Shown: positions 6,001-9,000 of the stretch, one piece after another
How the letters are laid out: each line of letters opens with the position of its first letter
How positions within the stretch are numbered: position 1 is the stretch's first letter
Source of the DNA: an uncultured Bacilli bacterium
GTDB lineage: Bacteria; Bacillota_I; Bacilli_A; RF39; UBA660
DNA length: 64,000 nt
Assembly (NCBI GenBank): GCA_934162425.1
Contig: CAKPIS010000003.1
Coordinates: 15,774 to 79,773 of the forward strand
Direction of reading: 5' to 3'
Made by a program: the position numbers

Positions 6001-9000
6001 AGCAGAAGTATTTAGTTTTACATAAGACACTTTCTTAGTTTTTAAAGACATATTATGATTAGCTTTTAATGCACTAGGAAGCATAGCTTGATATGAGTAT
6101 ATTAAAGGGCATAAGTACTTATTACTCATAAATTTACCAAGGTTTAATAACTCTTCATTTAGTATTTTCTCTTCATCTTTTATTTTTATAATATCTTTTA
6201 TTTCATATTCATCACTATAAGTAGTATAACCAAGAACAAATCCTTCAATATTTCTATTATTAAATGGTACTAAAACCCTTCTTCCTACTAAATCTTCTTT
6301 TATATTACTAGGTACATGATAAGTAAATGTCATATCATTAGATGATACTCTATTTTCAACTAAAACTTCTACATACATAAACTATTCACCTTCTAAATTA
6401 AATTATAACAAAAAGAAGACTTAATTTAAAGCCTTCTTTAACCCCTTTTATTAATTTAATAAGCGTTTGTTACCAGTATAACTCCATCCATTTATAGATG
6501 TACTAGTTGACCATCTATATTCTTTATTACATTCTGTCTTATATGTTTTTTCAGCAACCTTAGTATCAGTGGTATTTTCAGTTTTATAACATGTAGTACC
6601 ATCTAAAGTATAACCTTTATTACAAGTATAAGTAACTTTTGGAGTAACTGTTGTCTTAATACACTTCTTACCTGTTAAATTATATCCTGGATAATCTTCA
6701 CAAGTATATTTAGTAGATGAAGTTGTCTTAACACAGTATCTTTCATCATCAGTTTTAACAGTTCCAGATGGACATGTATAAACTGTTTTCTTTTCTTTAA
6801 CAGAACATATAGATCCAATTAAAATATATGTTTTATCAGAAGTATTAGTTGGACAAGAGTATATAGTTTTAGAACACTTACCAGATCCTATAGATGTAGT
6901 ACCAGCAGGACAACCATAAACTTTTTTAGTACAATACTTTTCATCATTAGTTTTCTCTGTTCCAGCAGGACAAGAATAATGTGTAATAGTCTTTGTACAA
7001 GTCTTATCTTTTTCATTTAATTTATATGCAGAACCATACTTAGAACAACTATATGTTGTAGTAGATTTCTTACATCCACTACCAGAATCAGTATATCCTG
7101 ATGGACAAGACTTAGTTGTTCCAGTAGCTTTTCTACATTTATTAGTATCATATAAAGTATATCCTGGATATGCATCACAAGAATAAGTAAATTTTGTATA
7201 TTCTTTTCTATATCTAAAATATTTATAAACTGTTACAGTAGTAAAACATGTATCACAAGTTAATTCTTGATAAGTATCAACTAAAACTAACTTTTCATTA
7301 TCATTTTCAAATGCTTCTGCACCATTATTAGAATATCTTGTAGATACATAAGTCCATTTATATGCTGTTGCATATTTATCAGCTGTAATTACACTATAAG
7401 TTTGATTAGTAATATAATCAGCATAAGTTGTCTTTACAGTACCAACAGCACCCTTAACATCGTATGAATAAGACTTAGCAGCTGTAACTTTTTGTGTTTT
7501 TACTAAAACTTCATCAGTTACAGAACTTGATTTATTAGCATTTATAGTAGAAGTAACTGTCTTAGTAGACTTATTAGCATCTACTTTTTTAGAATCACTT
7601 GTTATAACTGCTTTAGCATCTTTAGTATCAGTTGATGTAACATTAGTAATCTTTTTATTAGCACCTACCCTAACAACTCTAGAACCATTTTTTATACAAT
7701 TTGAACCAGCTAAGTAATATCCAGAAGGACATACATACTTATCAAATTTTTCAGTACATACATTCTTCATAAACTCATATTCATAAAGTTTTGAATGTTT
7801 TTTAGTTGTTATAACATCTGGAGTCTTAGTAGTTTTCTTAACTGTTTTTTTAGTTACTCTATCATTAATAACCATAGATGCTGTTGTAGTACTTTCTAGC
7901 ACTTTACACTTATCACTACATATATCATAGCATCCAAAATGTTCTATAATATAAGCTTCTTTATCACTACAAGATAAATTTACCTTTATTATATACTCAT
8001 TTTCAAGCTTTGTTACCTTTACATAAGAATCTTTTGTACTACAATATTTACCATTAGAATCCATTAAAGGTAATATTAAATTTTGATTTATCATTTCCTC
8101 TAATGTCATTTTCTTATAATCATTAATATTTTCAGGTAATCTTTCTACAGTATAGTAACTTTTAGCTACATTCTTCATTCTATCTATATTATCTGCAAAT
8201 ATTTGATAGTTTAATGGTTTTAAATCTGGCATTGGAAATAACCATATAAGTAAGAATATAAAAATTATGATTAATATTAATCTAATTAATAAATCTTTTA
8301 TGGTAAAACCTCTTCTTTCTTCCATCCTAAATTCCCCCTTTTGGCATTTGATGGCGTTTATACTACCACAAAAGCATTCAAATGTCAACTTTTTTCGTAT
8401 TTTTAATTATTTTATAAGACTATTTTTTCTTTAGGTAAATTAACGTGCAACCATCATTATAGTTATTTATATGAAAATCTAAAACATATTTGCTCATTTT
8501 AAGCACTTTTCTAACTTCTTCTTTTAATATTCCTTTACCCTTACCATGAACAACAACAATCTTTTCATTTTTAAGAACATAATTATCATAAATAAACTCA
8601 TTTAATAATACTCTGGATGAATCTTTTGTCTCTCCATGTAAATCAAGTGTAGGTAAATTAGAAATAAATATATCATCTAAACTACTTTTCACAATTAAAC
8701 CTAATGCTGCATTTCATATGCTTTAACTACGTTTTTTAAAAGACATGCAACTGTCATTGGACCAACACCACCTGGTACAGGAGTAATTAAAGAAGCTTTT
8801 TCAGATACTTCATCAAAGTCCACATCACCAGATAACACGTTATTTTCTTTATTTATTCCAACATCTATTACAACAGCTCCATCTTTAACCATGTCTTTTG
8901 TAATAAGCTTAGCATGTCCTGCTGCAACTATTAATACATCTGAAAATGAAGTATAACGCTTTATATCATAACTTTTAGAGTGACATACACTAACTGTTGC

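What the first reader, a model, noticed from the sequence alone, without database searches (positions are those of the whole stretch)
6451..8325. 625-aa Cys-rich repeat protein with a prepilin-like N-terminus
The N-terminus MEERRG-FTIKDLLIRLILIIIFIFLL resembles the class III (type IV pilin/pseudopilin) leader. It has a basic stretch, then Gly, then F-T-hydrophobic. The conserved Glu at +5 is replaced by Asp (F-T-I-K-D). The C-terminal half is built from about ten 17-20-aa modules, each with exactly two Cys (YSCPAGT...C.KT, YTCPSGT...CVKT, YGCPAGT...CSKT). I do not recognise this repeat. The gene sits between priA and the folD-glyA operon, next to an Smr-domain gene, with no neighbouring pilus machinery in the window.
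Basis: partly seen in the sequence, partly recalled or inferred. Interest (0 to 1): 0.65.

Follow-up and report, generated by a model that had tools for sequence, protein, structure and literature searches.

The report
Pilin-fold anchored Cys-rich surface protein
This gene from an uncultured gut Bacilli bacterium encodes a membrane-anchored surface protein whose base is predicted to fold like a type IV pilin but lacks the canonical pilin signal, and it belongs to a large protein family that nobody has annotated.

Summary
A 624-aa gene lies on the minus strand (6451-8325). It starts MEERRG-FTIKDLL, and ten two-Cys modules make it the most Cys-rich ORF in the window.

- No homologue among the 67 has Glu at +5.
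- Gly at -1 occurs in 82% of close homologues and 46% of the wider family.
- +9 is always basic in those 67 homologues and +4 is usually basic.
- The helix is rich in aromatics and poor in Gly/Ala/Ser.
- None of the family members scanned matches PF07963 or TIGR02532, whereas real pilins of the same lineage all do. One of these lies 1 kb outside the window.

The N-terminal domain defines about 1,600 unannotated protein clusters with varied C-terminal parts.

My best reading is a pilin-derived, probably uncleaved membrane anchor. It carries a flexible linker and a 440-residue beta module stapled by disulfides and displayed on the cell surface. A non-canonical minor pilin is not excluded. The Cys module matches no curated repeat family. 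I rate it moderately interesting, as a new variant of a known kind.

The parts
8360..8388 (-). Promoter-like site TTGACA-17-(TG)TAGTAT in the smr-X spacer
   Evidence: 10 of 12 matches with a perfect -35 and a TG extension. The total number of promoter-like sites in this AT-rich region is not above the shuffled controls, so this is suggestive only.
8333..8340 (-). Shine-Dalgarno-like AAGGGGGA, 7-8 nt upstream of the ATG
   Evidence: sequence read directly.
6451..8325 (-). Complete coding sequence of protein X (624 aa plus stop)
   Evidence: 422 homologues. One search also returned P0001, listed at 100% identity and 100% coverage over 624 aa.
8281..8325 (-). Residues 1-15, MEERRG-FTIKDLLIR. This is an acidic/basic tail with a class-III-like but non-canonical motif: G6 at '-1', K10 at '+4', D11 at '+5', R15 at '+9'.
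8236..8292 (-). Residues 12-30, the hydrophobic transmembrane helix LLIRLILIIIFIFLLIWLF. It is the most conserved part of the protein (87% mean pairwise identity among orthologues).
   Evidence: (helix 9-29).
8215..8235 (-). Residues 31-37, PMPDLKP. This is a nearly invariant proline hinge (P31, P33, P37) that breaks the helix between the membrane span and the head.
7933..8220 (-). Residues 36-131, the pilin-fold head: helix 36-57, strand 70-74, short helix 75-80, strands 101-106, 110-118 and 123-131. C95 and C119 are near-invariant.
7906..7932 (-). Residues 132-140, the invariant C-x3-C-x3-C motif (GCYDICSDKC) at the end of the head. It is modelled with low confidence.
7789..7905 (-). Residues 141-179, a Thr/Lys-rich linker predicted to be disordered. 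Its length varies from 29 to 69 aa among orthologues and its identity is 25%.
7258..7788 (-). Residues 180-356, the first half of the all-beta module. It contains C190, the isolated Cys module at 196-213 and Thr/Lys/Val-rich strands.
7246..7257 (-). Residues 357-360, a conserved C-x-x-C (CDTC)
6577..7188 (-). Residues 380-583, nine tandem two-Cys hairpin modules (Y-x-C-P-x-G-[YT]...C-x-K-T). In the model each Cys-bracketed loop joins two consecutive beta strands.
   Evidence: There is no DNA-level tandem repeat here, so the modules are old and diverged.
6454..6555 (-). Residues 591-624, the C-terminal strands. They contain C599, which co-occurs with C190, and the superfamily-wide motif Y-[KR]-W-S...G-W-x-Y-T-G-N-K-R.
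6412..6439 (-). Terminator-like hairpin plus T-run, 12 nt after the stop codon
   Evidence: 1 found against 0.4 expected.

Best explanation
X is a single-pass surface protein with its N-terminus inside the cell and the rest outside. Its N-terminal module descends from, or at least has the fold of, a small GspI-like type IV pilin. That module has become a permanent membrane anchor, or 'carrier', rather than a filament subunit.

**Proposed mechanism. The steps are inferred unless marked as shown.**
1. The short charged tail MEERRGFTIKD..R stays in the cytoplasm. The bulky, aromatic-rich helix 12-30 spans the membrane without being cleaved.
3. A 30-70-aa disordered Thr/Lys linker crosses the cell wall.
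4. The 440-residue all-beta module is folded oxidatively. About ten local disulfides close the hairpin loops, and one long-range disulfide (C190-C599) ties the first and last strands together. The Cys conservation and co-occurrence are shown. The disulfides themselves are inferred.
5. The stapled hairpin loops form the exposed surface. They probably bind a ligand (adhesion), or they build a rigid envelope-associated stalk.

The same anchor domain carries many different ectodomains in about 1,600 protein clusters. The logic is therefore that of 'modular pilins', but without the canonical pilin signal.
For: - **Non-canonical N-terminus.** E+5 occurs in 0 of 67 homologues. G-1 occurs in 55 of 67 homologues and 46% of 138 representatives. 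+9 is basic in 67 of 67, and K/R/Q in 96% of representatives.
- **Helix composition.** The family has 1-3% G/A/S, 21% aromatics and 2.4-2.7 charged residues per helix. Genuine pilins of the lineage have 18.6%, 0.4% and exactly one charged residue.
- **Signature models.** No family member scanned hits PF07963 (67 homologues plus 85 further representatives) and 0 of 31 hit TIGR02532, while 13 of 13 control pilins and the pilin 1 kb outside the window hit TIGR02532 above its cut-off.
- **Head behind other anchors.** Family members P0103 and P0116 have the same head, including its first helix, separated from a different signal anchor by 40-60 residues. The head therefore works without a continuous pilin alpha-1 helix.
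- **Family size and variety.** There are 1,623 clusters at E<=1e-3 with varied C-terminal parts, including Pro-rich wall-spanning-type linkers.
- **Conservation gradient.** Mean identity runs TM 87% > head 77% > C-terminus 62% > Cys modules 52% > linker 25%.
- **Cys pairing.** C190 and C599 are both present in 47 homologues, both absent in 20 and never discordant. Module Cys are lost in pairs.
- **Oxidative folding.** Two exported thioredoxin-like CxxC proteins are encoded in the window, one of them in conserved synteny.
- **No machinery nearby.** No pilus machinery lies next to X or next to any homologue examined.
Against: - Within the window's own clade (about 57% identity or more) Gly at '-1' is almost always kept, and the first residues after it (FT[IL]x[DE]LL) resemble those of the genome's real pilin (FTLIELL). 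Cleavage by a prepilin peptidase in this clade therefore cannot be ruled out.
- The TM helix is the best-conserved segment, as in true pilins.
- The genome and the lineage clearly encode canonical pilins, so a type IV filament (T4F) machinery is probably available.
- In this lineage even real pilin genes sit alone among housekeeping genes. The lack of neighbouring machinery is therefore weak evidence.
- Sequence-level homology to pilins is not demonstrated. The hhalign P of 0.0019 is carried by the N-terminal 25 residues, and the globular part alone gives P 0.06.
- The 3D arrangement of the beta module could not be inspected, and it matched nothing in the PDB.
- The function (adhesion or stalk) is inference only.
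Confidence: 0.5

Rival explanations
1. X is a genuine but non-canonical modular minor pilin. The prepilin peptidase cuts after Gly6. The pilin module then enters a type IV filament (Com-type or T4P), probably at the tip, and presents the Cys-rich beta module as an adhesin. This would be like PilB and PilC of S. sanguinis or CofB of ETEC.
For: - The head has a pilin fold.
- The motif RRG|FTIKDLL is present, and Gly is kept in nearly all close orthologues.
- The hydrophobic helix is the best-conserved part.
- There are faint sub-threshold hits of the N-terminal 45 residues to ComGD (6 of 31), ComGC and ComGF models.
- hhalign places the N-terminus in register with a real pilin.
- A canonical prepilin lies 7.5 kb downstream on the same strand in the same genome, and pilin clusters occur in relatives.
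- Modular pilins are a documented design (PMC8179133).
Against: - No homologue among the 67 has Glu5 (6 of 138 wider representatives do). Lys+4 and an always-basic +9 in those homologues would put charges into the filament core.
- Small residues are absent and aromatics are abundant.
- A three-proline break separates the helix from the head.
- Gly-1 is absent in 54% of the superfamily, and the head domain occurs behind other anchors.
- No PF07963 or TIGR02532 match is found, whereas all real pilins of the lineage match.
Confidence: 0.25
2. X is an ordinary Sec/YidC-inserted signal-anchor surface protein with no evolutionary link to pilins. The G-F-T-x-x-D string is coincidence in a juxtamembrane amphipathic segment. 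The helix-plus-three-strand head is a simple fold reached by convergence.
For: - HMMER profiles of the head find no pilin in the PDB.
- A pilin profile does not hit X among the window ORFs.
- Foldseek finds no pilin.
- The globular part alone is not significant in hhalign.
- The superfamily consensus of the N-terminal segment is phi-x-phi-[KR]-[DNG]-phi-phi-phi-[KR], with Gly only the most frequent residue.
Against: - The fold co-occurs with a directly preceding hydrophobic helix and a pilin-like G-F-[TS] start.
- Pilin models are over-represented among the noise-level NCBIfam hits.
Confidence: 0.2

Closest known systems
Modular type IV minor pilins (S. sanguinis PilB/PilC; ETEC CofB; T. thermophilus ComZ), as defined in PMC8179133
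   Same: Both have a small N-terminal pilin-fold module preceded by a hydrophobic helix, then a linker, then a bulky non-pilin module exposed to the outside. In both, the carrier module is conserved and the grafted modules are highly diverse.
   Different: X has no canonical class III signal peptide: no Glu5, Gly-1 not conserved across the family, basic residues at +4 and +9, and no IPR012902/PF07963/TIGR02532 signature. A proline hinge interrupts alpha-1. No pil or com genes are adjacent. The C-terminal module belongs to no described domain.
GspI/EpsI/XcpV minor pseudopilins of type II secretion, and GspI-like minor pilin PilA of S. sanguinis (PDB 2ret_A, 3ci0_I, 5bw0_B, 7o5y_B)
   Different: Sequence identity is 5-14%, and there is no profile-level sequence match. 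X carries five conserved Cys in or just after the head (C95, C119 and the C-x3-C-x3-C motif at 132-140) and about 480 further residues.
Canonical pilins of the same lineage: the 295-aa prepilin 1 kb outside the window (L013 12525-13412) and the P0279 and P0314-P0373 families
   Same: They come from the same genomes, use the same strand and the same kind of housekeeping neighbourhood, and begin G-F-T-[LI]-x-[ED]-L-L.
   Different: The canonical pilins have MKKKNKG|FTLIELLAVIVILGIILTIVV: one charge (E5), 19% small residues and no aromatics. All pass TIGR02532. Their N-terminal 40-85 residues are identical among the paralogues and orthologues compared.
EGF-like C-terminal hairpin (Pfam cEGF PF12662, EGF_3), the Sushi/CCP 'Y-S-C-n-s-G-Y-x-L-x-G' strand pair, and the PBCV-1 P7 disulphide-bonded subdomain (PF25636)
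   Same: All share a short motif, Y-x-C-x-x-G-Y-x-L-x-G-x-x-C, forming a Cys-bracketed beta hairpin. Sub-threshold or borderline hits appear in some homologues: cEGF in 13 of 67 and PBCV1_P7 in 11 of 67. The module profile hits CCP proteins only over 9-14 residues.
   Different: X modules are 20-27 aa with two Cys. EGF has about 40 aa with six Cys and CCP about 60 aa with four Cys and a Trp. The window protein reaches only 14 bits against the 28.5-bit cut-off for EGF_3. This is motif-level resemblance, not membership.

Membership tests
Type IV pilin / pseudopilin (class III signal peptide; definition quoted from PMC8179133) | Short hydrophilic leader ending in Gly or Ala at -1 | tested here: inconclusive
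   The window protein has MEERRG|F. Gly is present in 55 of 67 homologues (R, N, D, K or S in the rest) and in only 63 of 138 superfamily representatives. The leader is acidic/neutral (MEE.., MY.E..) rather than basic.
Type IV pilin / pseudopilin (class III signal peptide; definition quoted from PMC8179133) | Tract of about 21 predominantly hydrophobic residues whose only charge is Glu at +5 | tested here: not met
   Glu+5 occurs in 0 of 67 homologues (Asp 50, Gly 14). Lys+4 occurs in 57 of 67 and Arg/Lys+9 in 67 of 67. There are 2.7 charged residues per tract against 1.0 in control pilins, 1% against 19% small residues and 21% against 0.4% aromatics.
Type IV pilin / pseudopilin (class III signal peptide; definition quoted from PMC8179133) | Match to the signature models PF07963 (N_methyl) or TIGR02532 (IV_pilin_GFxxxE) | tested here: not met
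   PF07963: no match among the 67 homologues at E<=1 or the 86 sequences of the wider set (window protein plus 85 representatives) at E<=0.01. TIGR02532: 0 of 31 at E<=1. Positive controls: 13 of 13 lineage pilins, and the pilin next to the window at 32.3 bits against a 16.3-bit cut-off.
Type IV pilin / pseudopilin (class III signal peptide; definition quoted from PMC8179133) | Pilin fold: a long N-terminal helix whose C-terminal half packs on an antiparallel beta sheet | tested here: met
Type IV pilin / pseudopilin (class III signal peptide; definition quoted from PMC8179133) | Prepilin peptidase and filament assembly machinery in the genome; cleavage and N-methylation of the protein | not testable with these tools
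   None is in the 64-kb window or in the flanks examined. A canonical prepilin gene 1.06 kb outside the window and pilin clusters in relatives make a peptidase likely. The rest of the genome could not be read.
Modular pilins (PMC8179133) | N-terminal pilin module (IPR012902) fused through a linker to a functional module not specific to pilus biology | tested here: inconclusive
   The architecture is met: pilin-fold head, disordered linker 141-179 and a 440-aa beta module. The IPR012902-type signature is not met.
EGF-like / cEGF / Sushi (CCP) domains | Domain-length match above the curated cut-off and the family's Cys pattern (6 Cys per ~40 aa, or 4 Cys plus Trp per ~60 aa) | tested here: not met
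   The window protein scores EGF_3 E=0.06, 14 bits against 28.5. Modules have 2 Cys per 20-27 aa. PDB profile hits cover only 9-14 residues of CCP or thrombomodulin EGF5.
   There is no such Pfam or NCBIfam hit at E<=1 for the window protein. No such family appears among the 25 families listed for its 67 homologues (39 matched at E<=1).

The most novel reading that the evidence does not exclude
The N-terminal domain of X defines a previously undescribed superfamily of at least 1,600 clusters in uncultured gut Bacilli. In it the type IV pilin fold has been exapted as a general membrane anchor or carrier that displays many kinds of ectodomain. It works either with no filament at all, or through a non-canonical class of prepilin-peptidase substrates that carry Asp5 and basic residues in alpha-1N. 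Either way this would extend the 'modular pilin' principle beyond the class III signal peptide that currently defines pilins. The disulfide-stapled hairpin beta module would be a new extracellular fold in strict anaerobes.
Probability: 0.3. Interest if true: 0.7.

Novelty: new variant of a known kind. Interest (0 to 1): 0.5.

Why it matters
Type IV pilins are recognised in genomes almost only by their class III signal peptide. A large family with a pilin-like fold but a degenerate signal would be invisible to those searches.

If the family is pilin-derived, it shows one of two things. Either a filament subunit has become a stand-alone surface anchor, or prepilin peptidases and filaments accept a wider range of substrates than assumed.

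The protein is conserved as one syntenic copy in the relatives examined in a poorly known, uncultured, apparently spore-forming gut lineage, and it is probably a major surface structure. That makes it a candidate for host or mucus interaction.

A 440-residue beta module stapled by about eleven disulfides is also unusual for an anaerobic Firmicute, and it points to an active extracellular oxidative-folding system.

All of this rests on prediction. No function has been shown.

Tried and rejected
- **Pfam and NCBIfam scans** of X and of 67 and 86 relatives gave no family above threshold.
- **HMMER profiles against PDB sequences** for the full protein, the N-domain and the Cys module gave no relative, only short Sushi/EGF motif hits.
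- **Foldseek against the PDB** with the full model and with the N-domain gave nothing significant. Class II fusion proteins and beta-pore toxins appeared at E about 0.5 with TM about 0.1, which I treat as meaningless.
- **hhalign of the N-domain against a real pilin family of the lineage** scored 24.9 (P 0.0019). My controls (reversed, column-permuted, TM removed) show that the signal comes from the first 25 residues, and the globular part alone gives P 0.06. hhalign against the genome's own 295-aa pilin gave nothing.
- **A pilin HMM run on the window ORFs** did not pick up X.
- **A scan of GTDB genomes** returned only one locus, the same species, named 'uncultured Bacilli bacterium'.
- **Cluster look-ups for source names** returned none.
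- **Literature search for DUF5874** found no papers.
- **Correlating the lengths of the Thr/Lys-rich and Cys-module regions**, to test strand-for-strand pairing, was inconclusive.
- **P0099**, an apparent kinase-X fusion, joins in mid-domain on a 1.5-kb contig. I dismissed it as a probable assembly chimera.
- **P0309**, which seemed to share a contig with an X orthologue because the contig lengths were equal, turned out to be an unrelated pilin on a different contig (its neighbours are MMPL, molybdopterin and MFS genes, with no X).
- **Model coordinates** could not be read, so the topology of the beta module and the predicted disulfides could not be inspected.
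Full report
**1. The observation**

The ORF lies on the minus strand at 6451-8325 and encodes 624 codons plus a stop. The ATG at 8325 is preceded by AAGGGGGA at 8340-8333. Homologues nearly all start at the corresponding Met; a few gene calls carry short N-terminal extensions.

A promoter-like site, TTGACA-17-TGnTAGTAT, sits at 8388-8360, and a terminator-like hairpin at 6439-6412 flanks the gene on the other side. X therefore looks like its own transcription unit inside a long co-directional string of housekeeping genes: tsf, rpsB, an HD-domain gene, priA, X, smr, folD, glyA.

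The N-terminus is MEERRGFTIKDLLIRLILIIIFIFLLIWLF. The protein has 29 Cys (4.65%), against a mean of 1.48% for the other minus-strand ORFs, which is the highest in the window.

Ten modules have the form t-x-Y-S-C-P-x-G-Y-x-L-x-x-G-x-x-C-x-K-T. One is at residues 196-213 and nine are in tandem at 380-583. There is no tandem repeat at the DNA level, so the modules are old.

**2. The gene is real and conserved**

The protein has 422 relatives at E<=1e-3. About 90 of them are full-length at 45-70% identity. All are unannotated or 'hypothetical' and come from gut metagenomes and 'Bacilli bacterium' MAGs. The one species-representative genome hit is an uncultured Bacilli MAG from a Hadza gut sample.

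The order addB-addA-glyA-folD-smr-X-priA-HD-rpsB-tsf-PedC-like is kept in full in L002 and largely in L004, which lacks a called HD gene and a full-length rpsB. A 35%-identical relative still sits directly upstream of priA. More distant relatives sit in other housekeeping neighbourhoods. No pilus or competence machinery is adjacent in any of these.

**3. Architecture**

This comes from an AlphaFold model built on 67 homologues, with mean pLDDT 78.9.
- Helix 9-29 is the hydrophobic membrane span.
- A break follows at the nearly invariant P31, P33 and P37.
- Helix 36-57 comes next, then strands at 70-74, 101-106, 111-118 and 123-130.
- An invariant C-x3-C-x3-C lies at 132-140.
- Residues 132-177 form a low-confidence segment. 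Within it the Thr/Lys linker (141-179) varies from 29 to 69 aa among orthologues.
- An all-beta region runs from 180 to 623 with pLDDT about 80-90.
- In the repeat region, each Cys-bracketed loop joins two consecutive strands.

The module Cys are conserved in 50-67 of 67 homologues and are lost in pairs. C190 and C599 are both present in 47 homologues, both absent in 20 and never discordant. This suggests a long-range disulfide that ties the first and last strands of the beta module together. The caveat is that the 20 homologues lacking both may form a single clade.

Conservation among 50 orthologues falls in this order: TM 87%, head 77%, C-terminus 62%, Cys modules 52%, Thr/Lys strands 42%, linker 25%.

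**4. Is the N-terminus a prepilin signal?**

PMC8179133 defines the class III signal peptide as a hydrophilic leader ending in Gly or Ala, followed by 21 mostly hydrophobic residues whose only charge is Glu5. It is captured by IPR012902.

Measured against that definition, in 67 homologues:
- Gly-1 is present in 55.
- +5 is Asp in 50, Gly in 14 and never Glu.
- +4 is Lys in 57.
- +9 is Arg or Lys in all 67.

In 138 representatives of the wider family, Gly-1 drops to 46%, +5 is Asp in 62%, and +9 is K/R/Q in 96%.

The helix composition is unlike a filament-core helix. The family has 1-3% Gly/Ala/Ser, 21% aromatics and 2.4-2.7 charged residues per tract. Real pilins of the lineage have 18.6%, 0.4% and exactly one.

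Among the family members scanned, none hit Pfam N_methyl: the 67 homologues at E<=1 and the wider set of 86 sequences (the window protein plus 85 representatives) at E<=0.01. None of 31 hit TIGR02532. Only faint sub-threshold hits to ComGD (6 of 31), ComGC and ComGF appear. The positive controls behave as expected. A 121-aa pilin four genes from an X-family member in another Bacilli MAG (KKA|FTLIEVLATIVILGVLSAIV), together with its 12 relatives, all pass TIGR02532.

**5. A canonical pilin in the same genome**

Locus L013 is 100% identical to window 1-1000 and extends beyond the left edge. At 1.06-1.95 kb outside the window, and 7.5 kb downstream of X on the same strand, it encodes a 295-aa protein starting MKKKNKG|FTLIELLAVIVILGIILTIVV. 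This protein scores 32.3 bits on TIGR02532 against a cut-off of 16.3.

Relatives carry clusters of four such pilin genes around a tyrosine recombinase. The lineage therefore makes canonical pilins and very probably has a prepilin peptidase.

This finding also shows that, in this very genome, a real pilin looks quite different from X. And because real pilin genes here sit alone among housekeeping genes, the lack of neighbouring machinery says little either way.

**6. The head domain has a pilin fold**

A separate model of residues 1-141, built on 31 sequences, has pLDDT 86.6 and pTM 0.66. Foldseek against the PDB found nothing.

PilJ, PilA5, TTHA1218, TT_C0855, PilE, CFA/III pilin, FimA and XcpX follow further down the list.

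Sequence-level support is weak. HMMER profiles find no pilin in the PDB. hhalign against the control pilin family gives P 0.0019 with a collinear alignment, but my controls show that the score comes from the first 25 residues. The globular part alone gives P 0.06, barely above 30 column permutations.

I conclude that the fold is pilin-like (GspI type) and that common descent is plausible but not proven.

**7. A large family**

A profile of the N-domain finds 1,623 clusters (at 50% identity) at E<=1e-3. Of these, 874 reach E<=1e-10 and 395 reach E<=1e-30. All 150 listed hits score E<=1.4e-44 against the N-domain profile; most have it at the N-terminus and range from about 350 to 900 aa, and a few are short fragments.

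Their C-terminal parts differ. They include Cys-hairpin repeats, Pro-rich linkers, Listeria-Bacteroides repeats and regions with no match at all. Many share a C-terminal motif, Y-[KR]-W-S...G-W-x-x-T-G.

Two relatives, P0103 and P0116, have the same head, including its first helix, 40-60 residues downstream of an unrelated signal anchor. The head therefore does not need a continuous pilin alpha-1 helix.

**8. The Cys module**

No curated repeat family matches. The window protein gives only EGF_3 at 14 bits against a cut-off of 28.5. Among homologues, cEGF hits 13 of 67, PBCV1_P7 hits 11 of 67 and the CC domain hits 3 of 67, mostly at or below threshold. A profile of the ten modules hits only 9-14-residue stretches of Sushi/CCP domains and thrombomodulin EGF5.

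The module is a two-Cys beta hairpin. It shares a short motif with the EGF and CCP hairpins, but it has neither their length nor their Cys pattern. It does not match choline-binding or cell-wall-binding repeats.

**9. Most likely mechanism**

X is inserted with its N-terminus in the cytoplasm. The basic residues at +4 and +9 sit at the inner interface, and the helix stays in the membrane. The proline hinge and the pilin-fold head lie on the outer face. The disordered linker crosses the wall. The beta module is folded oxidatively and exposed.

Exported thioredoxin-like CxxC proteins are encoded in the window. One is a lipoprotein at 905-1465, which is PedC-like in orthologues and syntenic. The other is at 49092-49826 and carries a CPWC motif.

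The module probably serves adhesion or forms a rigid surface stalk. That last step is inference only.

I put 0.5 on this 'pilin-derived permanent anchor' model, 0.25 on a genuine but non-canonical modular minor pilin, and 0.2 on convergence without any pilin ancestry.

**10. Verdict**

The finding is a new variant of a known kind: the modular-pilin design without the defining signal. It belongs to a large family that carries no annotation.

Interest is moderate. The finding would catch the attention of people who work on type IV filaments and of protein-family curators, but no function is shown and the key question, whether X is cleaved, needs an experiment.

Noticed in passing
L013 12525-13412 (same genome; 1.06-1.95 kb beyond the left edge of the window, minus-strand direction): A canonical 295-aa prepilin (MKKKNKG|FTLIELLAVIVILGIILTIVV; TIGR02532 at 32.3 bits) sits alone between a 570-aa 'GRPSNE' protein and frr, 7.5 kb downstream of X.
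   Followed up: yes
L015 9045-12846 and L016 9030-12787 (relatives): Four N_methyl pilin genes lie in alternating orientation around a phage-integrase-type recombinase. The paralogues and orthologues compared share an identical N-terminal 35-85 aa and differ in their C-terminal parts. This looks like a recombinational (shufflon-like) pilin-variation locus.
   Followed up: partly
window 10840-11724, 11904-12845, 19327-20949, 21066-22988, and an ORF starting near 764 that runs off the left edge (all minus strand): Five membrane-anchored proteins share a conserved N-terminal motif, M-[GK]-[VL]-F-[KE]-N-x-[VI]-G-R-P-[ST]-N-[EK]-x(1,2)-K-K-[KQ]-R, followed by a TM helix. No family match explains the motif. 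One of them (19327-20949) has sub-threshold matches (below Pfam's cut-offs) to Flg_new and to ATLF-like metallopeptidase models.
   Followed up: partly
window 10840-12845: The two paralogous 'GRPSNE' genes are an insertion between glyA and addA when compared with relatives L002 and L004, where those two genes are adjacent.
   Followed up: partly
window 905-1465 and 49092-49826 (minus strand): Two exported thioredoxin-like CxxC proteins. The first is a lipoprotein with lipobox LITGC and motif CKYC, PedC-like in orthologues and syntenic with X. The second is a membrane-anchored protein with a CPWC motif. They are candidates for extracellular disulfide formation in a gut lineage that is presumably anaerobic.
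   Followed up: partly
window 2362-3435 (minus strand): Ribosomal protein S2 carries a C-terminal extension of about 100 aa, rich in Lys, Glu, Ala and Val, that ends in a Rho_N-like domain. Orthologues show Pfam Ribosomal_S2 plus Rho_N.
   Followed up: no
window 33016-35844 (minus strand): A 942-aa surface protein made of DUF285 (Mycoplasma-type, BspA-like leucine-rich) repeats, E 7e-154. Long near-identical internal segments give mirror ORFs on the opposite strand.
   Followed up: no
window 24001-26000: The pyruvate phosphate dikinase gene (24115-26742) has 35% GC against about 25% for the rest of the window.
   Followed up: no
L011 and L012 (right of the window) and L016: Genes for GerA/GerAC germination receptors and, in L013, SSPI lie in loci continuous with or sharing identical genes with the window's genome; SpoIIGA-type peptidase and YlbD/YlbE lie in the related contig L016. 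The lineage appears to form spores and so to have a cell wall.
   Followed up: no
P0099 (1.5-kb contig): An apparent fusion of a protein-kinase fragment to the second half of the X head domain and its beta region. The junction falls in mid-domain, so it is probably an assembly or gene-call chimera.
   Followed up: partly
L006 5070-6548 and L009 6358-7980: In one distant subfamily the X-type gene is immediately preceded by a 490-540-aa protein with an N-terminal J-domain (Pfam DnaJ in L006), a TM helix and a conserved extracellular domain. This is a conserved gene pair of unknown meaning.
   Followed up: no
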